DNA of 64,000 nt from a phage. Below the pieces are notes generated by a model, which worked only from the letters and a program-made list of their open reading frames with translations, was not told the DNA's origin and did not search any database. The number at the start of each line of letters is the position of its first letter. Position 1 is the first letter of the stretch. The translations under genes were made by a program, and so were the position numbers. The stretch is taken from sequence record PX068455.1; one strand, written 5' to 3'. Below are positions 11,968 to 45,488 of this stretch, in pieces.

Positions 11968-12320
11968 GATTTTTTATCCTCTCTGTTAATTGGTGTGGTG
12001 TTGTTCACCTTGCGAGGATAAGAATAACAATAACTGTACGAGCTGTCAACCATTAGTTAGAATTATTTTTTTTGGGCAGAATTCTCCAGCCGCCGCCCCT
12101 ACCAGGTTAACCATCGTTTTTTCGTACTCTTCTTTATGTTCCAACGCTCCCGCCATAGCCTTTTCAACCAGGGCGATAGCCTCAGCGTCATTAATCGCTA
12201 CATTTCCAGGGGATCAAATTACCTTTCATTTTTGTACCTCCTCTTCAATTGTTACCTGCCCTATAGCATAGGCCTACCAGGTTTGCAAGCTTTCACTCTC
12301 ACGGCAGGCACCGGTGACGG

Positions 12321-12372
12321 GGGAGACAACCACCGGGGATGGGCGCTGCATAAAATGAGAACGGTTATCATT
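12321..12372 (+). repeat. Bipartite repeat unit A: core GGGAGACAACCACCGGG plus GAGAACGGTTATCATT
   Basis: Read directly; core sits inside palindrome CCGGTG..CACCGG; gene-free region. Confidence 0.5.
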
Positions 12373-12454
12373 ATCATTTAAAAATTTATGCAAAAAATCC
12401 TTGCTTTCTTTGTCCTGTGTGATACTATAATAACAAGCCGGGGCAACAGGGGCC

Positions 12455-12508
12455 GGGAGACAATCACCGGGGGTGCCCGTTATTCTGCAAACGAGAATGA
12501 TTATCATT
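12455..12508 (+). repeat. Bipartite repeat unit B: core GGGAGACAATCACCGGG plus GAGAATGATTATCATT
   Basis: Second copy ~134 bp after unit A with the same ~20-bp core-to-module spacing. Confidence 0.5.
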
Positions 12509-12638
12509 CAAAATTCTAAATGAGAACTTTTCGCATTTCATAAATTTAGTTAGCATGCTAATTACCTACCGTGACAATTCTATATAAAATAATACCTCCT
12601 TAAATATTTCCATATACAAATTTTAAAAATCCATTTCC

Positions 12639-12802
12639 GAAAACGAAAAATCGATTTCGTCCCCAAAAATTTCAGGTCGAGCTCCGGAACGATTTCCAGA
12701 AAATCTGATTCAGAAAACGAAAAACAGATCGAGTACTAAGAAATTTATCGAGAAAAATTTTCAGAAAATTCAATCTTTGAAACGAAAAACAGATCGAGTA
12801 CT
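12639..12802. repeat. Iteron-like direct repeats ACGAAAAACAGATCGAGTACT
   Basis: Two exact 21-bp copies (~12717 and ~12782) plus a partial copy (~12639), in AT-rich non-coding DNA. Confidence 0.55.
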
Positions 12803-13040
12803 GAGAGAGATGTATCAAAACCTACTGAGAATAATGGGCTTATTGTTATAAAAGGTCAAAGGTAAGCTGGGAAAGTTCTGGTAGAAGGGTGAGGGTATGT
12901 GCGGAAAATCTGGAATAGTAACTTAAAGTACGGTGCGAACGATAGAATGAGCAGCACATCTTATCGCGCCTGTCTTGAAAAATCCATTTTAGTTTTCGAT
13001 CCATTTTCTGATTTTCTAAGAATTTTAAAATATCCGGCCA

Positions 13041-13082
13041 GGTAAAATATCAAAAGGAGGAAATCCATTTTAGAAATCCTCC
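13041..13082 (-). terminator. Rho-independent terminator
   Basis: GGAGGA..TCCTCC hairpin followed on minus strand by TTTTGATATTTT, ~30 nt after the 13114 stop. Confidence 0.45.
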
Positions 13083-13113
13083 TTATACTTGATGTGCCAG
13101 GGATTTTCAAGTA

Positions 13114-15878: not shown

Positions 15879-16076
15879 TTACGCAGGAATTGCTTCAAAC
15901 AGGCCGTTATCGATACCATCTTTCAAGTAAAGATTATACTCTATGTCGGTATCTGTGTAAAGGGCAGCATCCAGCATTCTATCTGTGAGTCCATCCATTG
16001 GGTGGAGAAACCACCACCCACGCCAGTCAAAGTAACAACCTGGTGCATCTTCTCTCACACGGATTCGATAAATCAT
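15879..16076 (-). CDS. hypothetical protein (65 aa)
   Basis: ORF track. Confidence 0.4.
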   Translation of the reverse strand: MIYRIRVREDAPGCYFDWRGWWFLHPMDGLTDRMLDAALYTDTDIEYNLYLKDGIDNGLFEAIPA

Positions 16077-16651: not shown

Positions 16652-17878
16652 TTAAAAAGGTATGTCATCATCAAAGGCGTACTGTGCCGGATTCTGATCC
16701 ATCGGGTCGTCTTCCGCATCATCTACAGGAGGAGCGTCTACAGTGTTTTGCTGTGGGGCGGCTTCCTGTTTGGCAGCTTGAGGCTCTTGATGGTCAGTGG
16801 CTCCAGCACCGTTCTTGATCCAATCATACAACGGTTCAGCAAGATTAGTCAAGACATCTTTTGCCTCTGCAGTAATTGCTACTGCAAAATCATCAACTTT
16901 CGTTTTCTTGTCAATACGGCGACAAGCGTTCAATACCGCATTACCAACACTGGCACCTACTTCATCTTCAGTTCGGTTAGTGGCTTGAGCGTACTCTTTC
17001 TTAAGCTCGATGGTGACCACGTGCAGTGTTTTAGCCACATCTAAAGGGCTGTCAATCTTAAACCCGCGATCCAGGATGATCTGCAATGCATTGATACTGT
17101 GCCCTGTCTCTACACCGATGGGGTCGTAAGAGGATTTACGCTTACCACCAGAACCTTGTGTACCGTTCTCTGCTTTAGGCGGGTAGGCCTTGAAGCCGCT
17201 GATAATATTCCCGGTGTCTTTGTCAACAATAGCTGCAACACGACCGCCAACCACCAGGTCTTTAAGCTGCTCATCAGAGACAACCATAGCACCTTCACCA
17301 ATCTTGTGATCATTGACAGTAACCACGTTGCCAACAATCTGAGTCACATCACCATAGATGCGTAAAACGTCCTGATTGGCATTCTGCTGAGGTTTCTGCT
17401 TCTGGCCTTGTGATTGTGTGCCTTGTTGCTGTTTTTGTTGCTGTGGAGCTGCTGGAGCCTCTCCTGCCCCCAACTTAACCATTTTAGCCAGTGAGCCTTT
17501 GTAGTAGGTCTTGCCGTTATGCTCGTTTGCCTTCAAAGGGATATTTACGATCCATCCTGGCGTTACGGTTTCCCACTTGTCGTCAATTTTAACAGAGACG
17601 GAGTCTTGATGACCAGGCTTAAGCAGCTTATCACCCATACTGATCCAAACTTCTTCACCACCTTGGAGCAGGTTATCAGAGGAGTCCAGTTCAGAAATCA
17701 GTAAAGAGATGGTGTGGCTGGATTCAATTTTCTTACCTTGCCACACAGTGGTTTTAATACCTGTTGTAGGATCAGCACCTTTAATGGGCTTGATGCTGAC
17801 ACGTTTAATCATACCGTGAGCCAGTAAAACAGTTTCACGCGGATTCATCGGGTTGGCAAATTGTTGAATAACGCTCAT
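16652..17878 (-). CDS. ssDNA-binding-like protein with SSB-type acidic C-terminal tail (408 aa)
   Basis: C-terminus ...AFDDDIPF; Gln-rich linker QQQKQQQGTQSQGQKQKPQQ; ATG after SD AAGGAGA overlapping upstream stop (TAATG). Confidence 0.5.
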   Translation of the reverse strand: MSVIQQFANPMNPRETVLLAHGMIKRVSIKPIKGADPTTGIKTTVWQGKKIESSHTISLLISELDSSDNLLQGGEEVWISMGDKLLKPGHQDSVSVKIDDKWETVTPGWIVNIPLKANEHNGKTYYKGSLAKMVKLGAGEAPAAPQQQKQQQGTQSQGQKQKPQQNANQDVLRIYGDVTQIVGNVVTVNDHKIGEGAMVVSDEQLKDLVVGGRVAAIVDKDTGNIISGFKAYPPKAENGTQGSGGKRKSSYDPIGVETGHSINALQIILDRGFKIDSPLDVAKTLHVVTIELKKEYAQATNRTEDEVGASVGNAVLNACRRIDKKTKVDDFAVAITAEAKDVLTNLAEPLYDWIKNGAGATDHQEPQAAKQEAAPQQNTVDAPPVDDAEDDPMDQNPAQYAFDDDIPF

Positions 17879-18288
17879 TATTTGTCTCCTTGTTCTTCGT
17901 TGGTGTTTGCTGTGTGTGCAAACCCTGCTTGAATTAATTTGTCCTGCACTTGAGCCAACAGGCCCATTGCAAAACTTGTCGTCCCAGAAAGGGCCATTAG
18001 CATATCTCGTTGCTGAGCTACCCAACCTAAGGCATAATCTAAACGACGATATTTTTCTTCTTCGCGCAGAGCCTGAAATAACTGTTCAGCCTCTGGTTGT
18101 TGTGTGAGCTCCTGAAGTCTTCCCATAAAAGAAGAAAGTACCAGCAGAAGAGACACTTGATCTTTGCTTAACCCTAAGAAAAATTCTTGAGGTTGTTCTT
18201 GCTCGTTCATCGCAACCGACGCTTGATCGTTCATTTGTTCCATTGTGGAATCTCCGATTTTATTTGAACAACATAAAGGAGACACCAT
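17878..18288 (-). CDS. hypothetical protein (136 aa)
   Basis: ORF track; SD AGGAGA before ATG. Confidence 0.5.
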   Translation of the reverse strand: MVSPLCCSNKIGDSTMEQMNDQASVAMNEQEQPQEFFLGLSKDQVSLLLVLSSFMGRLQELTQQPEAEQLFQALREEEKYRRLDYALGWVAQQRDMLMALSGTTSFAMGLLAQVQDKLIQAGFAHTANTNEEQGDK

Positions 18289-18325
18289 TTTAGCATCTCC
18301 TTCTGTAAATTACAACAGCTATTTA

Positions 18326-18571
18326 TTAGCCAATTACTTCGAAAGTGCCCCAACTCCCGTTCAGCAGGCAGGTGATCGGATCACCATCATCGTCAATTAT
18401 TTCAAAGTTTTCAACATCCAGAATATGGTCATCGAACACAATACTTTCGTCACCACCACCAGAAACAACAGTGTATTCCTTACCTTGAGTCAAGTTTTGA
18501 CACCCTTTGCCACCAAAACCTACTTCAACACAACGTACTTTCTGTCCTGCGCGAGCAACTACTTCAGCCAT
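18326..18571 (-). CDS. small DDxGD-motif protein, paralogue family member 1
   Basis: Contains IDDDGDPITC; see tandem family finding. Confidence 0.5.
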   Translation of the reverse strand: MAEVVARAGQKVRCVEVGFGGKGCQNLTQGKEYTVVSGGGDESIVFDDHILDVENFEIIDDDGDPITCLLNGSWGTFEVIG

Positions 18572-18588
18572 CTTAAGGTCTCCTGATA

Positions 18589-18909
18589 TTAATCGTCAAG
18601 TTCAAAATAGATTTTAACAGCTTCATCAAAGATTGGAATCCCGATGTTGTTGATAAGCTGCCAAACTACCATATCTTTTCCTGGATCTGGGAGAATGTCA
18701 ACCTTTCTCCATGCGCTGTATATCCAGTTCGGACCGCCTTCTGCACTAACTGGTAGATTTTCACCAGCTTCCTGTAGATACTTATACAGCAAAAGGTATT
18801 CTGGATACTCTAGAACACTGTCCTCTGTAGTATACAGCAGTTCACGGTATACTTTCAAGAATCCTGTTGGGTTGATGTTTTCAGTCTTCATTTGCTGCTT
18901 CTCCTGCAT
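18589..18909 (-). CDS. hypothetical protein (106 aa)
   Basis: ORF track. Confidence 0.5.
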   Translation of the reverse strand: MQEKQQMKTENINPTGFLKVYRELLYTTEDSVLEYPEYLLLYKYLQEAGENLPVSAEGGPNWIYSAWRKVDILPDPGKDMVVWQLINNIGIPIFDEAVKIYFELDD

Positions 18910-19285
18910 TCATCAGATCTGCCATAGCGTCACCAACGAAGAGGACAACCACGTCGTTGACAGCGTCAGCATCATCTTTATTGATGTTGCTGAATTTGGG
19001 GCACACTGCAATGACCATATAGACCCCGTTGCCCAACTGAACAGTGCGTGTAGTGCACATCAGTGTGGTGCTTGTGCCTTCTTTAAAGGCAAATCCTTGC
19101 AGACGTTCTTCCAGAGAGCCACCTGTGGATTTCAACAAGGCAAGATCTCCCAGTGCGTAGGTAGTGTCCTCATAGGTCAGTCCAGAGGTCAATGTTGCCT
19201 TTCCATCAGAGACTATAATAACTCCATCGGCACCGTCAAGCTCAGAGGCTTCAAAGATATTAATATCCCAAATGTTTTTCATCAC
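18881..19285 (-). CDS. hypothetical protein (134 aa)
   Basis: ORF track; antisense 18644..19306 rejected. Confidence 0.5.
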   Translation of the reverse strand: MMKNIWDINIFEASELDGADGVIIVSDGKATLTSGLTYEDTTYALGDLALLKSTGGSLEERLQGFAFKEGTSTTLMCTTRTVQLGNGVYMVIAVCPKFSNINKDDADAVNDVVVLFVGDAMADLMNAGEAANED

Positions 19286-19554
19286 GCTTCCTCGTCATCT
19301 AAGTAATCATCAAGAGAGGTGAAGATTTCACCGAAGTATTCTAATACCTCCAGCTCTCTGGTGGTGCAACAAACATAATCTCCCTGGTCATCCTTGATAG
19401 TAGCCTCCTTACCTAGCACATCCACTTCAAATTCATCGTTTAGCAGGACGGCCCCTGTGTAAATTTTGTCTGCTGTGCAGTCCCGAAAAGCAGAGTCCTT
19501 CTCCAGATAGTCTGGCTTAACCTTGGCTTTAATTCGTTGATATTGTTTGGTCAT
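19282..19554 (-). CDS. small DDxGD-motif protein, family member 2
   Basis: ORF 19282..19614 trimmed to ATG with SD AAGGAG; KPDYLEKDSAFRDCT..IKDDQGDYVCCT parallels next gene. Confidence 0.5.
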   Translation of the reverse strand: MTKQYQRIKAKVKPDYLEKDSAFRDCTADKIYTGAVLLNDEFEVDVLGKEATIKDDQGDYVCCTTRELEVLEYFGEIFTSLDDYLDDEEA

Positions 19555-19617
19555 TGCTGTGGTCTCCTTTCGTTTTGATAGGGCCATTATATTAGACCCC
19601 ATCTCTATTGTCAAGTA

Positions 19618-19872
19618 TTAATGCTCAGGTTTTACAAAAACTACTTCGTTAACAGTGCACCAGACAGAATCCCCTTCATCATCTTTAAAGGTAAGACACT
19701 GGGCCGAGTTTTCCAACTCATCAAGTTCTTCTTGTGATAAACAGGTTCCTTCTTCCAGAAGGGCTTTTACCAAAGGGTTCTCACAAAACTCTGCTTCATA
19801 AATTGCACCGAGTGTGCAATCTTTAAAAGCTCGGTCATTTGCAACGCATTCTGGCTTCAAAGTGATTTGCAT
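19618..19872 (-). CDS. small DDxGD-motif protein, family member 3
   Basis: KPECVANDRAFKDCT..FKDDEGDSVWCT. Confidence 0.5.
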   Translation of the reverse strand: MQITLKPECVANDRAFKDCTLGAIYEAEFCENPLVKALLEEGTCLSQEELDELENSAQCLTFKDDEGDSVWCTVNEVVFVKPEH

Positions 19873-19948
19873 CTTAGCAGTCTCCTCAATTATTTAAAAA
19901 TCAAATCTCTGTTTGTGTGAAGTATCTTATATCCAATCTTACTTCTTG

Positions 19949-20347
19949 TCAATGGCTATTTTCAATCATCCACACAGGGTCGAGGTAAATTTGTTGGCGT
20001 TTTGCCCAATGACAAACTTCATTGTACATCTGAATCTCTTTGTCTGTCAATTCACGAATAGGCTCATCTATACCCTCATTTTTGTGGTAATCCCAGTCGG
20101 CATCGATTTCCCACAACCATGACTTACGATCTTCACGCTTACGCACACAGAAGTCCCCAGGACGGCCTGCCAGTGCATTTAAGAACTCGTTCTCCGCTCG
20201 CTCCTGAAGAATACTAAGGAGCAAAACGTTGGAGCATGACCGTAAAATATGCTTCAGCTCACAATCATCAATCTCAACTTCAATACGTTGCTTGACTGTG
20301 TGGGTACCTTTTACTAACATTCTACCTCCTCTATACAAACTCTGCAA
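19949..20347 (-). CDS. hypothetical protein (132 aa)
   Basis: ORF track. Confidence 0.5.
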   Translation of the reverse strand: MQSLYRGGRMLVKGTHTVKQRIEVEIDDCELKHILRSCSNVLLLSILQERAENEFLNALAGRPGDFCVRKREDRKSWLWEIDADWDYHKNEGIDEPIRELTDKEIQMYNEVCHWAKRQQIYLDPVWMIENSH

Positions 20348-20525
20348 GGGTTGTGTTGTTCACCGCACCGCAGTAGATGGAATATCCCAACCCATTAGGG
20401 TGCAGAAACCACGGCACACCTTGGTCATCCTTCACGTATACATCTCCATTTTTCGTGAAGGGCCAATACTCTTCCCCAAGGGTAAAATACCTACTCATAC
20501 CTTCAGCCAGATACTTTACTTTCAT
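20331..20525 (-). CDS. small DDxG-motif protein, family member 4
   Basis: VKDDQGVPWFLHPNG. Confidence 0.5.
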   Translation of the reverse strand: MKVKYLAEGMSRYFTLGEEYWPFTKNGDVYVKDDQGVPWFLHPNGLGYSIYCGAVNNTTLAEFV

Positions 20526-20749
20526 AGATCCTCTTCAACAGCTACAAACTTGGCAAGTAGGGTGGTTCCATAGATATGATACTCACCGTTTGCCAGATGG
20601 GAGATATACCAGGAGATACCGTCCTCGTCTTCGATCATATTGTTTCTGCGATCCTTATCGTAATAAACCTTGTAGACCTTACCTTCTTCAAAGAATGATA
20701 AATCTGTCATCTTCTCTTCTACAAACGTCGCTTTAACCAAAGTTGTCAT
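20522..20749 (-). CDS. small DDxG-motif protein, family member 5
   Basis: FFEEGKVYKVYY..IEDEDGISWYI. Confidence 0.5.
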   Translation of the reverse strand: MTTLVKATFVEEKMTDLSFFEEGKVYKVYYDKDRRNNMIEDEDGISWYISHLANGEYHIYGTTLLAKFVAVEEDL

Positions 20750-21030
20750 TGATCTGCCTCCTTCTTGTTAAGCCGGAACACTGCAATAATAGCATTTCCA
20801 AGATGCAGTGTCAAATCATTTCCCAGATACCACAGCATTCCACGGTCATCTTTAATGAAAGGGTAACAGTCTGGTGCCTTCCAGACATTATACACTTTGC
20901 CGACCTGAAAGAAATCAGGCCCTGTTGGAATTTTAGTACCGGGCCACACTTGAGACACCTGAACGCACTCTACCTGCATAATAACAGGAATAGTCATGGA
21001 GGTAAATGTTTTTGTCGGTTCTACTACCAT
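20746..21030 (-). CDS. small DDxG-motif protein, family member 6
   Basis: FFQVGKVYNVW..IKDDRGMLWYL. Confidence 0.5.
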   Translation of the reverse strand: MVVEPTKTFTSMTIPVIMQVECVQVSQVWPGTKIPTGPDFFQVGKVYNVWKAPDCYPFIKDDRGMLWYLGNDLTLHLGNAIIAVFRLNKKEADQ

Positions 21031-21081
21031 AAAAGTCTCCTCTCTTTGTCTAGCAACACTTCCGTGTGTTGATAGTTTACA

Positions 21082-23859
21082 TTAGTGACAATCGCCCCAG
21101 TTACGACCGCACAAGTATTCACCTGTGATCTGGAACGGAACGCCCATCATTTTAGAAGCCTGCCAGAAGCAATGCACCACCATTTCGCCCACAGGGCTCC
21201 AGATAAGTTCAAGCTTTCCGTCATCGTTCAAGATAGGATCGTATACCGTATTTCCGTCCTTGTCAACCATTTCGTTTCCATCCTCATCTTTGCGTGCCTT
21301 TTTGTACTTATGACCGTCGAACACATGAAGTTTAGCCTCCTGCTTGGCCTTAAATGTTTCCAGCTCTTCAATTGTGTCGAAGGTGTATACGGTTTTATAC
21401 TTAGGTGTGTCAGGCACTTGAAGCTGATATTCGTCATGGTAATAAATAATACGACGAACACCTTCATCATACCATCCACGCTTCACCATTTGGTGGTGCA
21501 TGAGGATTCCGACCAAGTCGCACAACGATGCACCGCCATTTTGCTGATATGCATTAAGCAAAGAGTGTTTAGAGCGGGTCCAAATGGCATGCCCGTCAAA
21601 AGAGTAGATAAATTTCTTACCTGTTGCTTCCCAGAATTTCTCCAGATCCTCTTTACGCCCCTTAAGGCCTGGGTTGGCATCCCAGAGAGCATCAATTACT
21701 CTCTGTCCAAGTTCTGGAGAGATATCTAGCATATCTGCAACTTTATCTTTTTGTGCCCCGTACATAACCCCATATGTGACAGGCTTACCATCGTTACGAG
21801 ACACCTCTCTACCTGCTACTTTTGTATATGCCTCAGCATTGTTTTGGTGCGCGTCCCCGTTACTTACAACATCATAATACAGACCGTTGTCAAACTCAAA
21901 GGCACCCCAGGCCCCGATGAGCTGCTCTAAGTTGGACCCGTCAATACCGATCTCAAAGTATCCCGGAGGAACACCCCACAGACTACGCATCTCTTTACCC
22001 ATAACCACTTTAGGAGATGGTTTAGGCATGTTTGCACAAATACTATGTTTCTGTCTGGAAGTGTTTGTTAATCCAGAACTTTTAGCAGGAAGCTTGTGGT
22101 CAATCTTCAAACGTGGATGATTAAGAAGACCAGTATCAACCTTATCTTCCTTGATTGGATCAAGGACCGATCTGCGGTTTCGCAATGATAACCACAAAAC
22201 GATATCTTTAGCCATCTCTCCGTTCAATTTTTCAAGATTCGGGCACAGGTGTCCAAACGTATCTTTCAGTTGCGGAGAAGTAATAAGCGCTCTGGCTTTT
22301 CTACGTATCTTCCCAAACACTTCCTTTTTAATCCTTTCTGAGTTAGGGAAGCTTCGGAACTTATGCACAGTTGTCTGGAACTTGGCATCAGTTTTGTTCC
22401 AGAAGTTGATAATTAGATCACAATACTCTGACTCTAAAAGCTCGTCCATATATGCATATACTCGTGCATCAACATCTGCATCAGGTAAAGCTTTCTTCTT
22501 ACTATCCTTAGTTACATCCTTAGTTCTCCACATTGTTGGGAGCCAACCAGCACTGATCAGGTATCGCTTGATGTCGTCCTGATTGCTGATTTTCATAGGT
22601 ATCTTGCAGTCAGGCATTCGCTTCTGCTGTAGGTCACTTATCGCCTGATCCATCAGCTCTTTAGGTAAAGGGTGTGGTGTAGAAGTTCCTTTGATATACC
22701 CCCTCAAGAAATCAGCCATCTTATCGGGGTCTTTACAGCCCATCTCTTCACACCATTTTATCCCCATCTTACTTACATCCCCTGTGGAGGTAAATGCTCG
22801 CTTAGGAGGGGCTTTAAATTCTAAAGCACTCATGTCTACAGGATAGCCAAGCTTGTCTTTTAACCATTTCCAACCATTATTGGAGATTGTCCCATCTTGG
22901 TTAAACGGCTTTTCAGGGAACTTAGGCCGTTGAGACATTGATAGCTCTTTTAAAGGAAGTTGTGGTTCAACACGATCAGCGATCTCTTTCATCCACGCAT
23001 CGCAGCGGTCACGTAAAGCAATAGCCCCATCTATGTCGAAATACACCCCCTGTCGAGCCTGCAGCTCCATCAGGAAGTGCTGTAACATGCCTCGGCGTAA
23101 TGCGTTCTTCCAGGTGATCTTCTTGAAGCCTTTCGGCTTCTCTTTGGCAGGATCGTACATAAAGTTCTGCATGTCAGATTTGCCGTAGAATACACCTTTT
23201 GATTCAGCTACCAACTCCTTCCAGAGCAACTCCTGAATGATAACGTCCTCGAACACACGATCCACATACTTCCACAGCGGAAGCTCACGCCAGTCATCGA
23301 TTTGAACTTTCTGGTTACCAAGGGCATAGCCCCATGCCATAAGGCCATGAGGCCCAACAGGCTGCATTTTCTTGGTAACTGGATTGAATACTGCGTCCGG
23401 ACAACCTTTTGGCAAAGGGCGGTCAGGCCACAAGATTCGACTCATCGCTAACGTATCAAACAGATTAACCTGGTGGTCGTTGATAGTTCCCATGCATTTA
23501 GGATCACGGAACATATCAAAATGAATACCGGATAATCTTTCCATCAGCATAAAGTCGTAACTGTAGCAGTTATGGCAGTTCAAAGCCGTAGGTGACCAGT
23601 CTGAATTGCCTGTAAGCCAGCCTTCCAACTCTGAAAAATCTGCTATGCGAGCCTCAAAATCTGTATAAAGGGTCTTCTTTGCCAGAATGAAGTTCTTAGC
23701 TTTCTCCACATCCTCTTCAGAGTAGTGTGTGCGGTCATTTAGGGGAAGGAACAGCATAAAACGGTTCTTATTCAGCTCTTTAAACAAACCGCAGTGATAA
23801 TAAAGATCTGGGTCTTCCAGCAAGCCAGAGGCCTCAAAATCGAACGACCACATGCTCAT
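21082..23859 (-). CDS. DNA polymerase, family A (Pol I-like) with 3'-5' exonuclease domain (925 aa)
   Basis: N-terminal exo motif SFDFEASG; Pol A motif B KPVTYGVMYGAQ; motif C YHDE; ATG with SD AAGGAGA. Confidence 0.85.
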   Translation of the reverse strand: MSMWSFDFEASGLLEDPDLYYHCGLFKELNKNRFMLFLPLNDRTHYSEEDVEKAKNFILAKKTLYTDFEARIADFSELEGWLTGNSDWSPTALNCHNCYSYDFMLMERLSGIHFDMFRDPKCMGTINDHQVNLFDTLAMSRILWPDRPLPKGCPDAVFNPVTKKMQPVGPHGLMAWGYALGNQKVQIDDWRELPLWKYVDRVFEDVIIQELLWKELVAESKGVFYGKSDMQNFMYDPAKEKPKGFKKITWKNALRRGMLQHFLMELQARQGVYFDIDGAIALRDRCDAWMKEIADRVEPQLPLKELSMSQRPKFPEKPFNQDGTISNNGWKWLKDKLGYPVDMSALEFKAPPKRAFTSTGDVSKMGIKWCEEMGCKDPDKMADFLRGYIKGTSTPHPLPKELMDQAISDLQQKRMPDCKIPMKISNQDDIKRYLISAGWLPTMWRTKDVTKDSKKKALPDADVDARVYAYMDELLESEYCDLIINFWNKTDAKFQTTVHKFRSFPNSERIKKEVFGKIRRKARALITSPQLKDTFGHLCPNLEKLNGEMAKDIVLWLSLRNRRSVLDPIKEDKVDTGLLNHPRLKIDHKLPAKSSGLTNTSRQKHSICANMPKPSPKVVMGKEMRSLWGVPPGYFEIGIDGSNLEQLIGAWGAFEFDNGLYYDVVSNGDAHQNNAEAYTKVAGREVSRNDGKPVTYGVMYGAQKDKVADMLDISPELGQRVIDALWDANPGLKGRKEDLEKFWEATGKKFIYSFDGHAIWTRSKHSLLNAYQQNGGASLCDLVGILMHHQMVKRGWYDEGVRRIIYYHDEYQLQVPDTPKYKTVYTFDTIEELETFKAKQEAKLHVFDGHKYKKARKDEDGNEMVDKDGNTVYDPILNDDGKLELIWSPVGEMVVHCFWQASKMMGVPFQITGEYLCGRNWGDCH

Positions 23860-23917: not shown

Positions 23918-25996
23918 TTAAAAAGGTGTTTCGTCGTCTTCAAAACCAGGAACGTGGTTAGAGGACGGATCATCATACTGAAGATCTTCCTGTGTGTCAA
24001 CAGGGTTAACAGCAGGAGTTATAACCTTATCAGCCACAACCTTGCCCACAGGTGTTTCTACAACTGCATGCTCCTGATCCTCAAACATAGCTTGAGGTCT
24101 CCAAACAACCTCTCCACCTTCCCCGTCTGTAAACATCTGCATCTCTTTATCCCAATACCAATTGCTGGCATCGTGGAACTTGCCTGTGTGGGGATCCATA
24201 ACTAGGGTGTCCGCAATACCTAAGGTTTTTGCTGGGCGGTTTTTAAGACCTACCAGCCGGACACGTCCACGGGAACGATCCACCATCTCCTCTGCCTCTA
24301 CCCCGACAACCACCCAGCTAAGTTGCTCCAATCCGGCACTACCGCGAAGGTTCTCTTTTCGCACAGGGTACCAGAAAGGTAACGGATTTCCATCCTTATC
24401 CTTCGGAGGTACAATCTCTGTGCGCTTCAGGTGAGCAATCACCAAGATAAACACATTAAACTGCTTACAGAACGCGGCTAGTTGAGTCATAGCCATGTCA
24501 AGCTCTTTACGCTCATCCTTAACATTAAGCCCTGAAATCACCATAGACAAGTGATCCAGCACAATGTAACGGCAGTGATACAGGCACACCATTTGTTTAA
24601 GCTTAGTGATCAGCTCATCTACAGGGATGGAGCCGAAATGCTTGAACACTTTGATTTTTCCGGCCTTGGCCCAAGATTGATGAATCTCAGCGTGCTCCTG
24701 ATCGGTCAGGAACTGACTGGGGTCTTCAACAAACTCTTTAACATCAAACCCCAGCTGGTTAGCGTACAGAGAGTTGATTGCTTCCTCAGGATCCTCTTCA
24801 AGGTGAATCAGGCACAGGCGATCATCCTCTTCATAATCATCAGCTTTAGGGCATGTTGGGTCCATCAAGTATCTTGCAATGCAATGTTCCAGCTTCTTGG
24901 CTACAGTTGTTTTACCACCGCCAGACGGGCCTGTCAGCATCATCAAGGTGCCTTTGTGGAGTCCTTTCAGCATCTTCTGCAGTTTAGGGAACTCTGCACT
25001 AATATCCACGCCATTGGAAGTCTTCTTACGAAGAGATTCAATGGAGAAGTCTTCTAAATCAGATACAGCATCAGGCACATATTTGACTGGGTGACGGAAC
25101 ATGTTGACAATATCTTCCAGCTTTTTAGCCTTCAGCATGTCACGAATATCTTTTACACCATCAGGGTCGTTTACCTCACCTGGGTATTCCACGTGGTAAA
25201 CGTTGTCAGCCATCAAAAATGCTGCGATATTATGCGTAGCTTCAACACCTTTGATAACGTGTTTTTGCTTCTCTACCTCGTTAGCTGCATCGTTGTCCAT
25301 TGCAAGGACTACTGTTCCGTAGCTACGGATAAATTTCTCATTGTTCGCAAAAGTGTCTACGGCGTTTGCACACCCGCAGTTAATTCCGACAAAAGGCAGG
25401 CATGGTTTTCCTGCCAGATCACCGCCGTTGATAACTGCATCAATCCCATCCTGGACTTCTTTAGCCCACTGCTTCACCTTCGCTGGGGCTTTAGCATTGG
25501 TGAGAATACCTTTTACTTGTACCTGATATGCAGCCTGCCACGCTGCAATAACATCTCCTTCCCCCTCACAAACGTTAATCTGCTTGCGGTTGTTGGAGGA
25601 TGCACACAGCTTTTGACCAAACATCTGGGAGTTGGCCTTTACTATGCCGACAACCGAGAAATGGCCCCTTTGCTCTTTAGGGATTGTCCAGTCACGCTTT
25701 TTAAAGCCAGATAGATTACCGTAGCGGTCATAATACGGAAAGTAGGTGGCAGTAACAGTTACGCCATCCTCTTGGGATAGCGATGATCGTACACCAAAAT
25801 ATTGTGCAGCCATCAGTCCAATATTTTGTTGTGGAACAGGGACAATTTTAGTATTTTCTAAAACAGTCTCTACAGTTTCAACTTCTTTTTCATCACGATA
25901 GTCTCGTTTCACACTTCCCCCACTTTTATACTTAGTTGCTTTCGGGTTTGGCTCACCGAAACGGTTGTATGCAGATGCCATGAATTTACTGCCCAT
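23918..25996 (-). CDS. primase-helicase fusion (TOPRIM primase plus DnaB-like helicase; 692 aa)
   Basis: TOPRIM-like EGEGDV; Walker A GPSGGGKTT; Walker B-like ILVIAH. Confidence 0.8.
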   Translation of the reverse strand: MGSKFMASAYNRFGEPNPKATKYKSGGSVKRDYRDEKEVETVETVLENTKIVPVPQQNIGLMAAQYFGVRSSLSQEDGVTVTATYFPYYDRYGNLSGFKKRDWTIPKEQRGHFSVVGIVKANSQMFGQKLCASSNNRKQINVCEGEGDVIAAWQAAYQVQVKGILTNAKAPAKVKQWAKEVQDGIDAVINGGDLAGKPCLPFVGINCGCANAVDTFANNEKFIRSYGTVVLAMDNDAANEVEKQKHVIKGVEATHNIAAFLMADNVYHVEYPGEVNDPDGVKDIRDMLKAKKLEDIVNMFRHPVKYVPDAVSDLEDFSIESLRKKTSNGVDISAEFPKLQKMLKGLHKGTLMMLTGPSGGGKTTVAKKLEHCIARYLMDPTCPKADDYEEDDRLCLIHLEEDPEEAINSLYANQLGFDVKEFVEDPSQFLTDQEHAEIHQSWAKAGKIKVFKHFGSIPVDELITKLKQMVCLYHCRYIVLDHLSMVISGLNVKDERKELDMAMTQLAAFCKQFNVFILVIAHLKRTEIVPPKDKDGNPLPFWYPVRKENLRGSAGLEQLSWVVVGVEAEEMVDRSRGRVRLVGLKNRPAKTLGIADTLVMDPHTGKFHDASNWYWDKEMQMFTDGEGGEVVWRPQAMFEDQEHAVVETPVGKVVADKVITPAVNPVDTQEDLQYDDPSSNHVPGFEDDETPF

Positions 25997-44915: not shown

Positions 44916-45080
44916 TCGATTTTAAGGCCTCAAACGAGGCCTGTGCCTTCATAAATTGTCCTACCCTATGTGATTACCCACCCTGAACAAAATACCTCTC
45001 CAAAATCGTTTAAAATTAAGCTTGACCCCAACATCAGATCTATGTATGATTACCTCACCAACCAAACAGAGGAGATCGTC

Positions 45081-45488
45081 ATGAACAATCTTGCAGATGT
45101 AAATGTCGAAATTGTTAAACTAAAGTTCTTGGGCTTTCGAGACCCTTATTCTTTAACAGCTATACTAATGGACACTCACTTCACACCAGGTAAAGAGTAC
45201 ACAGCCTTCCGTTATATTTGTGGAGATCACGAATCAGCTTATAGTGTGAATACAAACCTCGGCGAGGGATATTTCATCAGAGATATCACAGATCACTTAT
45301 GGGGAATGTGGGAGTTGGTGGAAGAAGAGAATAAATCCCTTCCTAAAGAGATTTGGGTGCACACCTTCCACACAGGTAAGTTTGGAGGTACGGAACATAA
45401 GTCTATCCACTATGATGAAGAAAGTGCCATCAAACAACAAGCTGTGCTTGGTGGATCTGTAGAAAAATTTTTTAAATGCGAGGACTGA
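45081..45488 (+). CDS. hypothetical protein (135 aa)
   Basis: ORF 44970..45488 trimmed to ATG with SD GAGGAG. Confidence 0.5.
   Translation: MNNLADVNVEIVKLKFLGFRDPYSLTAILMDTHFTPGKEYTAFRYICGDHESAYSVNTNLGEGYFIRDITDHLWGMWELVEEENKSLPKEIWVHTFHTGKFGGTEHKSIHYDEESAIKQQAVLGGSVEKFFKCED

What the first reader, a model, noticed from the sequence alone, without database searches (positions are those of the whole stretch)
18326..21030. Tandem array of six small paralogous proteins with a shared (K/E)DDxG..W/C motif just upstream of the DNA polymerase
Six ORFs of 64-94 aa (18326..18571, 19282..19554, 19618..19872, 20331..20525, 20522..20749, 20746..21030) share a motif: IDDDGDPITC, IKDDQGDYVCC, FKDDEGDSVWC, VKDDQGVPWFL, IEDEDGISWYI, IKDDRGMLWYL. 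Two sub-pairs also share longer blocks (KP[ED]..AF[KR]DCT and FF..GKVY.V). Repeated duplication of a small early gene suggests diversifying selection, as seen for host-takeover or anti-defence factors. I do not recognise the motif as a named family.
Basis: seen in the sequence. Interest (0 to 1): 0.6.

Follow-up and report, generated by a model that had tools for sequence, protein, structure and literature searches.

The report
Small beta-barrel paralogues in rV5-like phage
Six small acidic genes next to the DNA polymerase of an rV5-like E. coli phage are old, conserved copies of a widespread but uncharacterised phage beta-barrel module, whose one studied structural relative (Gp54 of phage Bas11) is sensed by a bacterial immune protein.

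Summary
The window is a Vequintavirus (rV5/FV3-like) E. coli myophage. All six ORFs are real minus-strand genes. They are annotated as hypothetical proteins in identical genomes and conserved in more than 116 genomes, with dN/dS of 0 to 0.26.

- **Layout:** they lie downstream of the DNA polymerase, not upstream. Three unrelated genes interrupt the array.
- **Motif:** h-x-D-[DE]-x-G is enriched above chance, in 7 of 73 small ORFs against about 1 expected.
- **Homology:** P2~P3 and P4~P5~P6 are clear paralogue groups. An independent profile, built from multi-repeat proteins found in a full database scan, joins P1, P4, P5 and P6 into one superfamily (hhalign 92-97%). P2/P3 join only suggestively (p about 0.001).
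- **Family:** the module (h-[KR]-C-h … T-x-G-K-E-Y-x-V … h-x-D-D-x-G-D) has no Pfam model. It is spread over many unknown-function PHROGs and occurs in T1-like and Enterococcus phages, often in several copies per genome.

The function is not known. The most likely role is non-enzymatic early binding modules. The duplications are ancient, and diversifying selection is not supported. Interest is moderate.

The parts
20746..21030 (-). P6, 94 aa, module-family member (phrog_12922); first gene after the DNA polymerase
   Evidence: ORF. CDS in ECP2309. phrog_12922 at E 2.7e-67. Repeat HMM E 1.8e-6 and hhalign 91.9%. dN/dS 0-0.025.
20522..20749 (-). P5, 75 aa, module-family member (phrog_12623); predicted six-stranded beta-barrel
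20331..20525 (-). P4, 64 aa, module-family member (phrog_12802)
   Evidence: Repeat HMM E 9.7e-9 and hhalign 95.8%. BLASTP to P5 and P6 at E about 1e-3. dN/dS 0.08-0.10.
19618..19872 (-). P3, 84 aa (phrog_12544); paralogue of P2 and probable but unproven module member, with a roughly 27-residue helical insertion between the G..Y and DDxG blocks
   Evidence: P2~P3 hhalign 96.9%, E 1.9e-10. Superfamily profile against the P2/P3 family scores 22.2, with 0 of 200 column shuffles reaching it, probability 22%. P1-type profile gives 32%, E 4.8e-4. AF2 pLDDT 48.7, unusable.
19282..19554 (-). P2, 90 aa (phrog_11936); paralogue of P3 with an acidic C-terminal tail DDYLDDEEA
   Evidence: ORF. The ATG at 19554 has an AAAGGAG RBS and lies downstream of a perfect promoter. 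dN/dS 0.07-0.12.
18326..18571 (-). P1, 81 aa (phrog_4927); module-family member of a long-spacer type
   Evidence: phrog_4927 at E 1.6e-26. hhalign of the repeat profile against the P1 family gives 92.9%, E 3.8e-7. With P0094 and P0096 added it gives 96.7%, E 3e-10. P0082 and P0084 hit phrog_4927 as well as the P4-P6 PHROGs.
19586..19614 (-). Perfect sigma70 consensus promoter (TTGACA-17-TATAAT) in front of P2
   Evidence: This is a consensus match only, with no expression data.
19924..19952 (-). Sigma70-like promoter in front of P3, equivalent to rV5 P220
   Evidence: 10 of 12 matches. Annotated in rV5.
20786..20814 (-). Sigma70-like promoter with an extended -10 inside P6, upstream of P5/P4, equivalent to rV5 P224
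   Evidence: 11 of 12 matches, with TG. rV5 Table S4 lists P224.

Best explanation
**What is shown.** The six genes encode small, mostly acidic proteins (pI 4.1-5.1; P6 6.5). No signal-peptide or membrane-segment prediction was run. They are ancient paralogues of a widespread, uncurated phage module. The module has three blocks in fixed order:
- beta1: h-[KR]-C-h
- beta2: [FW]-T-x-G-K-E-Y-x-V

A variable-length connector lies between blocks 2 and 3. P1, P4, P5 and P6 are members. P2 and P3 are paralogues of each other and probably divergent members.

**Fold, predicted for P5 only.** A six-stranded beta-barrel with a long beta1-beta2 loop, the rare topology solved for Gp54 of phage Bas11.

**Mechanism, inferred.** The conserved residues are structural: glycines, a tyrosine, aromatic residues and a hairpin turn. 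They are not catalytic. The module also occurs as two to five tandem repeats in single polypeptides. I therefore take these proteins to be non-enzymatic binding modules. They would be made early from host-RNAP promoters, each binding a different host or phage protein. By analogy with Gp54 of Bas11 they would be accessory rather than essential, and possible targets of host immune sensors.
For: **Real genes under purifying selection.** dN/dS 0-0.26. Conserved in 116 or more genomes. Annotated as CDSs.

**Homology network.**
- BLASTP and hhalign within the two groups.
- A full HMMER scan of 1.84 billion representatives found only 14 hits. Among them were the multi-repeat proteins P0081, P0082, P0084 and P0086.
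- An HMM of their 12 repeats picks P4, P5, P6 and P1 as the top four of 530 window ORFs, at 1e-8 to 3e-3 against noise at 0.095.
- hhalign gives 92-97%.
- P0082 and P0084 hit phrog_4927 (the P1 family) and also phrog_12802, 12623 and 12922.

**Gp54 of Bas11.** It is a rare six-stranded barrel, non-essential and of unknown function, and it binds CapRelSJ46 directly (PMC11578894).

**Expression and location.** Sigma70-type promoters lie inside the array. The genes sit in rV5's non-late transcription unit.

**Not in the virion, acidic.** Searching the rV5 MS table for ORF numbers 216, 219, 220, 222, 223 and 224 returned only numeric values in three passages and no ORF entries. All are acidic in the rV5 gene table.

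**Multi-copy elsewhere.** T1-like phages carry a member next to the Gp54 homologue, and Bas11 has further weak members. Enterococcus phages have up to three places per genome.
Against: - No experiment or expression data exists for these six genes.
- Only P5 has a usable model. The P3 model failed (pLDDT 48.7), and P1, P2, P4 and P6 were not modelled.
- P2/P3 membership rests on marginal profile scores (hhalign 22-32%, p about 0.001).
- The Gp54 of Bas11 family shows no significant sequence similarity to any group here (hhalign at most 5%, E about 0.008-0.015). The relation may therefore be fold convergence.
- The function of Gp54 of Bas11 is itself unknown, so the binding-module mechanism is analogy plus absence of catalytic signatures.
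- Strong purifying selection and universal presence in the genus fit a conserved housekeeping-type accessory role at least as well as an arms-race role.
Confidence: 0.55

Rival explanations
1. Replication accessory factors. Because they sit directly after the primase-helicase and the DNA polymerase, the small barrels could act as adaptors or modulators of the phage replisome or of nucleotide metabolism, rather than acting on host factors.
For: Position immediately 3' of the polymerase, in a block that also holds a helicase, a methyltransferase and a candidate SSB-like protein with a T7-type acidic tail. Strong purifying selection and universal conservation within the genus. The P0095 homologue sits among RNA ligase, PNKP and NAMPT genes in another phage.
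Against: Sister genera (Mydovirus, Seunavirus) and ICP1 have orthologous polymerase and primase-helicase but no detectable orthologues of the six. The interspersed genes X132, X106 and X136 are conserved there. In T1-like and Enterococcus phages the module is not linked to polymerase genes. No nucleic-acid-binding family matched.
Confidence: 0.15
2. Partly coincidental grouping. The DDxG motif is just a favourable beta-hairpin turn, so P2/P3 (and conceivably P1) are unrelated small proteins that share it by convergence. The true family would be only P4-P6.
For: Direct inter-group hhalign E is 0.02-0.3, over only 12-16 residues. P2/P3 against the repeat profile is no better than the best control ORF. 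The P3 model has low confidence and no Gp54-like match. None of the multi-repeat proteins hits phrog_11936, 12544 or 17459.
Against: P1 is linked at 92.9-96.7% through an independent profile and shared PHROG hits. For P2/P3 all three blocks align in register, with scores beyond 200 column shuffles. Long connectors between blocks 2 and 3 occur in bona fide members P1, P0094 and P0096. Six motif carriers within 2.7 kb against about 1 expected in 73 ORFs.
Confidence: 0.2
3. Minor virion or decoration proteins.
For: P0081, P0082 and P0084 weakly hit phrog_14592, labelled 'virion structural protein'. One BFVD fold match is labelled 'putative minor capsid protein' in the Vequintavirus isim.
Against: That isim protein is not encoded in this region. 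The genes lie in the non-late transcription unit with sigma70 promoters. A search of the rV5 virion MS table for ORF numbers 216-224 found no ORF entries. The labels are unverified annotations.
Confidence: 0.05

Closest known systems
Gp54 of Escherichia phage Bas11 (PDB 9AXB; phrog_7421), a trigger of the CapRelSJ46 fused toxin-antitoxin defence (Zhang et al., Nature 2024, PMC11578894)
   Different: No significant sequence similarity (hhalign 3-5%; different PHROG). Gp54 lacks the T-x-G-K-E-Y and D-D-x-G-D signatures. Whether the Vequintavirus proteins bind CapRel or any other sensor is unknown. The physiological function of Gp54 is also unknown.
PHROG families 4927, 3523, 3249, 10169, 12802, 12623 and 12922 (all 'unknown function')
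   Same: P1, P4, P5 and P6 are full-length members of 4927, 12802, 12623 and 12922. They cross-hit 3249, 10169 and 3523.
   Different: PHROG splits what is shown here to be one superfamily into many families, and it gives no function or fold.
SH3-like small beta-barrels (SH3, FeoA, PliC/PhiA, PH/PTB-like)
Pfam DUF7244 and DUF7127
   Same: They gave the only Pfam hits: P1 residues 55-80 and P2 residues 36-68.
   Different: E 0.017 and 0.033, about 15-16 bits against cut-offs of 27-27.6. They do not recur in any other member.

Membership tests
T-x-G-K-E-Y / D-D-x-G-D phage beta-barrel module (uncurated; PHROGs 4927, 3523, 3249, 10169, 12802, 12623, 12922) | Significant profile match to independent members, namely the repeats of P0081, P0082, P0084 and P0086 | tested here: met
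   P4, P5, P6 and P1: HMM E 1e-8 to 3e-3 as the top four of 530 ORFs, and hhalign 92-97%. This holds for four of the six.
T-x-G-K-E-Y / D-D-x-G-D phage beta-barrel module | The same profile test applied to P2 and P3 | tested here: inconclusive
   hhalign 7-32%, E 5e-4 to 5e-3. The score exceeds all 200 column shuffles, but it is comparable to the best control ORF.
T-x-G-K-E-Y / D-D-x-G-D phage beta-barrel module | Three blocks in fixed order (h-[KR]-C-h; T.G..Y; h.DD.G) | tested here: met
   Visible in all six in alignment A4. P4 and P5 have a degenerate block 1.
T-x-G-K-E-Y / D-D-x-G-D phage beta-barrel module | All-beta six-stranded barrel | tested here: inconclusive
   Met for P5 (pLDDT 82.9). 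The P3 model is unusable.
Gp54 of Bas11-like proteins (PDB 9AXB, phrog_7421) | Six-stranded barrel with a prominent beta1-beta2 loop | tested here: met
Gp54 of Bas11-like proteins (PDB 9AXB, phrog_7421) | Sequence membership in the Gp54 family | tested here: not met
   Gp54 falls in phrog_7421 only. hhalign of an eight-member Gp54 profile against g456 gives 3-5%, and at most 0.4% against the other groups. The PDB sequence search with A2 does not find 9axb.
Gp54 of Bas11-like proteins (PDB 9AXB, phrog_7421) | Direct binding and activation of CapRelSJ46; dispensability for the phage | not testable with these tools
   Needs co-expression toxicity tests, ITC and phage deletion mutants (the methods of PMC11578894).
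Pfam DUF7244 / DUF7127 | Score above the gathering threshold | tested here: not met
   15.6 and 14.9 bits against cut-offs of 27 and 27.6. No recurrence in 18 members.
Known defence-system proteins (PADLOC-DB) | Match to any model | tested here: not met
   No hits at E up to 1 for the six proteins plus three homologues.

The most novel reading that the evidence does not exclude
The module could be a general-purpose phage 'binder scaffold'. Each paralogue, and each repeat in the multi-repeat proteins, would have evolved to bind and neutralise a different host factor or immune sensor. Host sensors such as CapRel would in turn have learned to recognise this fold. The six Vequintavirus copies would then be a fixed battery of counter-defence or host-takeover binders.
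Probability: 0.15. Interest if true: 0.7.

Novelty: new member of a known kind. Interest (0 to 1): 0.4.

Why it matters
Much of the gene content of large lytic phages is small hypothetical genes. This analysis shows three things:
- Several such genes in one well-used phage genus (rV5-like phages, including BASEL collection members such as RudolfGeigy/Bas52) belong to one superfamily.
- The superfamily also populates T1-like and Enterococcus phages.
- It shares the rare barrel of the only studied example, a trigger of a bacterial immune sensor.

That gives a concrete handle for experiments: a defined module, a signature, six deletable genes and candidate sensors. It also gives grounds for merging many PHROG families. 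It does not by itself reveal a new mechanism.

Tried and rejected
- **Small in-window HMMs** of P4-6, P2-3 or all six did not cross-detect the other groups or any further paralogue.
- **Word-indexed protein searches** found only Vequintavirus orthologues of 83% identity or more. The superfamily alignment added just P0094 to P0097.
- **No orthologues of the six** downstream of the polymerase in Mydovirus, Seunavirus or ICP1.
- **Pfam, PADLOC and PDB sequence searches** gave nothing significant.
- **The afdb50 fold library** was not available.
- **A sequence link between the Gp54 of Bas11 family and the module** was tested with an eight-member profile and is not significant.
- **Recent duplication** is rejected. 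No DNA repeats were found beyond a 14-nt K-D-D-Q-G codon match.
- **Diversifying selection** is rejected at the whole-gene level.
- **The longer antisense ORFs on the plus strand** are rejected as genes.
- **The isim 'putative minor capsid protein' fold match** is not encoded in this region.
- **Literature searches** found no functional study of these genes and no follow-up on the function of Gp54.
Full report
**Identity of the window and gene layout.**
- The 8 kb around the finding is 100% identical to Escherichia phages ECP2303 and ECP2309. It is 92-97% identical to more than 100 rV5/FV3-like phages of the genus Vequintavirus.
- Everything from about 1 to 39 kb is one minus-strand block of roughly 75 mostly small genes.
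- In the direction of transcription the order is: primase-helicase (23918-25996), DNA polymerase (21082-23859), P6 (20746-21030), P5 (20522-20749), P4 (20331-20525), X132 (19949-20320), P3 (19618-19872), P2 (19282-19554), X134 (18881-19285), X106 (18589-18909; Pfam DUF7238), P1 (18326-18571), X136.
- The array is therefore downstream of the polymerase, and three unrelated genes interrupt it.

**Are they genes?**
- All six are annotated CDSs in ECP2309, FV3, rV5 and isim.
- The whole nine-gene block is present in 116 or more genomes at 88-100% nucleotide identity.
- Nei-Gojobori dN/dS in the minus-strand frame against FV3, rV5 and isim is 0-0.26 for each of the six. This is similar to the neighbours (0-0.20), and the polymerase gives 0.01-0.03.
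- The longer plus-strand ORFs over the same DNA are therefore antisense artefacts.
- In the rV5 gene table the orthologues (ORFs 216, 219, 220, 222, 223, 224) are listed without homologues. All are acidic. A search of the virion MS table for these ORF numbers returned only numeric values, not ORF entries.
- My own calculation gives pI 4.1-5.1 for P1-P5 and 6.5 for P6.

**Is the motif more than chance?** The pattern [ILVFM].D[DE].G is found in 7 of 73 small minus-strand ORFs, six of them in this 2.7 kb. Shuffled sequences give a mean of 0.96 and a maximum of 5 in 1000 trials.

**Homology inside the window.**
- BLASTP and family-profile hhalign show two solid groups:
  - P2~P3: E 1.4e-9; hhalign 96.9%.
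  - P4~P5~P6: P5-P6 2e-5, P4-P6 1e-3, P4-P5 2e-3; hhalign 68% and 37%.
- Between the groups, and for P1, only the 12-16 residue DDxG stretch aligns (E 0.02-0.3).
- HMMs of the groups do not find each other, or any further paralogue, in the window.
- There is no DNA-level repeat, so the duplications are ancient.

**Bridging evidence.**
- Word-indexed searches returned only Vequintavirus orthologues.
- An exhaustive HMMER scan of 1.84 billion representatives with the P4-6 profile returned just 14 hits. These included P0081 (346 aa), P0082 (571 aa), P0084 (181 aa) and P0086 (179 aa), which are built of two to five tandem copies of the same module.
- An HMM made only from those 12 repeats picks P4 (9.7e-9), P5 (3.1e-7), P6 (1.8e-6) and P1 (2.9e-3) as the top four of 530 window ORFs. 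The next hit is at 0.095.
- hhalign of the repeat profile gives 95.8, 93.0, 91.9 and 92.9% for the P4, P5, P6 and P1 families. Fifty-one other small window ORFs stay at 8.5% or below.
- P0082 and P0084 hit phrog_4927 (the P1 family; 2e-18 and 6e-10). They also hit phrog_3523, 12802, 12623, 12922, 3249 and 10169.
- P1-type relatives P0094 and P0096 show that long connectors between the G-K-E-Y and D-D-E-G-D blocks are normal in the family. With them added, the P1-type profile matches the repeats at 96.7%.
hhalign spans it, although the repeat HMM alone aligned the upstream IVFDD instead.
- For P2/P3 all three blocks align in register, but the scores are marginal. The superfamily profile gives 22%, score 22.2, against shuffles with mean 8.8 and maximum 16.4 (0 of 200 reaching it). 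The P1-type profile gives 32%, E 4.8e-4. I treat P2/P3 as probable, not proven, members.

**Fold.**
- AlphaFold2 on the P4-6 alignment gives a P5 model with pLDDT 82.9. It has six strands and a long beta1-beta2 loop.
- No templates were used for the prediction. The 9axb entry was released in November 2024.
- BFVD Foldseek shows the fold in many small uncharacterised proteins of T1-like and other enterobacterial phages and of Enterococcus phages.
- At the sequence level, an eight-member Gp54 profile aligns to P4-6 in the expected register, but not significantly (3-5%, E about 0.01). Gp54 also sits in a different PHROG.
- In T1-like phages the gene next to the Gp54 homologue is a bona fide module member (HMM 1e-7; hhalign 94.8% to the repeats). 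Bas11 gp41, gp48 and gp61 are weak members.

**Distribution.**
- Orthologues of the six are confined to Vequintavirus. The syntenic regions of Mydovirus, Seunavirus and ICP1 lack them but keep X132, X106 and X136.
- The module itself is broad. It occurs in T1-like phages, in a 65-kb phage contig among RNA-ligase, PNKP and NAMPT genes, and in Enterococcus phages with up to three places per genome.
- No Pfam model covers it.

**Expression signals.**
- Sigma70-type promoter matches are enriched in the region, 14 against 6.1 ± 2.3 expected. They include:
  - a perfect TTGACA-17-TATAAT in front of P2 (19614-19586). This fixes the P2 start at the ATG at 19554, which has an AAAGGAG RBS;
  - the equivalents of rV5's published P220, in front of P3, and P224, inside P6.
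- The rV5 paper places these genes in the non-late transcription unit 10-1-238-164.
- These are consensus matches only. No transcript data were found.

**Interpretation.**
- Shown: real, conserved genes. Two firm paralogue groups. A superfamily joining P1, P4, P5 and P6. A Gp54-like barrel for P5.
- Inferred:
  - All six share the fold.
  - They act as non-enzymatic binding modules. The conserved residues are structural, the module is used in tandem repeats, and no catalytic family matches.
  - They are made early.
  - Their targets are host or phage proteins.
- The anti-defence reading is possible but unsupported by selection data.
- The main rivals are a replisome-accessory role, convergence of P2/P3, and a virion role (least likely).

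**Verdict.** This is a new set of members of an existing but uncharacterised kind of small phage protein, and it is of moderate interest.

Noticed in passing
window 21082-23859 (-): The DNA polymerase gene is uninterrupted here (925 aa). In FV3, rV5 and several other vequintaviruses the same gene is split by an insertion carrying an HNH homing endonuclease and small ORFs.
   Followed up: partly
window 23918-25996 (-) and 16652-17878 (-): The primase-helicase ends in ...FEDDETPF, and the 408-aa protein of phrog_4477 ends in ...AFDDDIPF. Both resemble the acidic, Phe-terminated C-terminal tails by which T7 gp4 and gp2.5 bind T7 DNA polymerase (from my own knowledge). The 408-aa protein may be the phage SSB-like partner.
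   Followed up: no
window 19586-19614 (-): A 12-of-12 sigma70 consensus promoter lies between P3 and P2. It overlaps the longer start codons that some annotators use for P2, which argues for the 90-aa form.
   Followed up: yes
GenBank MG0656xx records (hits H25, H90, H95, H96, H113, H114): Sixteen records named 'Campylobacter phage', with host given as C. jejuni, are 88-99% identical to this E. coli Vequintavirus region. The host assignment looks doubtful.
   Followed up: no
P0043, P0038 (orthologues in other contigs): P0043 is an in-frame fusion of the N-terminal 70 or so residues of P2 with the C-terminal part of X134, so it is a deletion variant. P0038 is a P6 orthologue with an internal 11-residue duplication just before the DDxG block.
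   Followed up: no
window 44970-45488 (+): A 172-aa protein (phrog_15992) on the other strand block weakly matches the module HMM (E 1.3e-3, 'HFTPGKEYTAF'). It could be a further, fused relative.
   Followed up: partly
window 18245-18586, 18644-19306, 20377-20736, 20743-21072 (+): Antisense ORFs of 109-220 aa overlap the array and are longer than the real genes. A naive longest-ORF caller would pick them. dN/dS supports the minus frame.
   Followed up: yes
L010, L011, L016, L017 (T1-like phages), gene 3' of the Gp54 homologue: The gene immediately after the Gp54 homologue (vojen_79, PHB17, YSP2_06, Stevie gp55) is a clear member of the T-x-G-K-E-Y / D-D-x-G module family. Bas11 itself has a non-member (gp53) at that position.
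   Followed up: partly
window about 12000-13100: The window's coordinates are offset by 130 bases from ECP2309 downstream of this stretch but not upstream of it. It is offset by 329 bases from ECP2303 at window position 16000. The window is therefore not from exactly either record.
   Followed up: no
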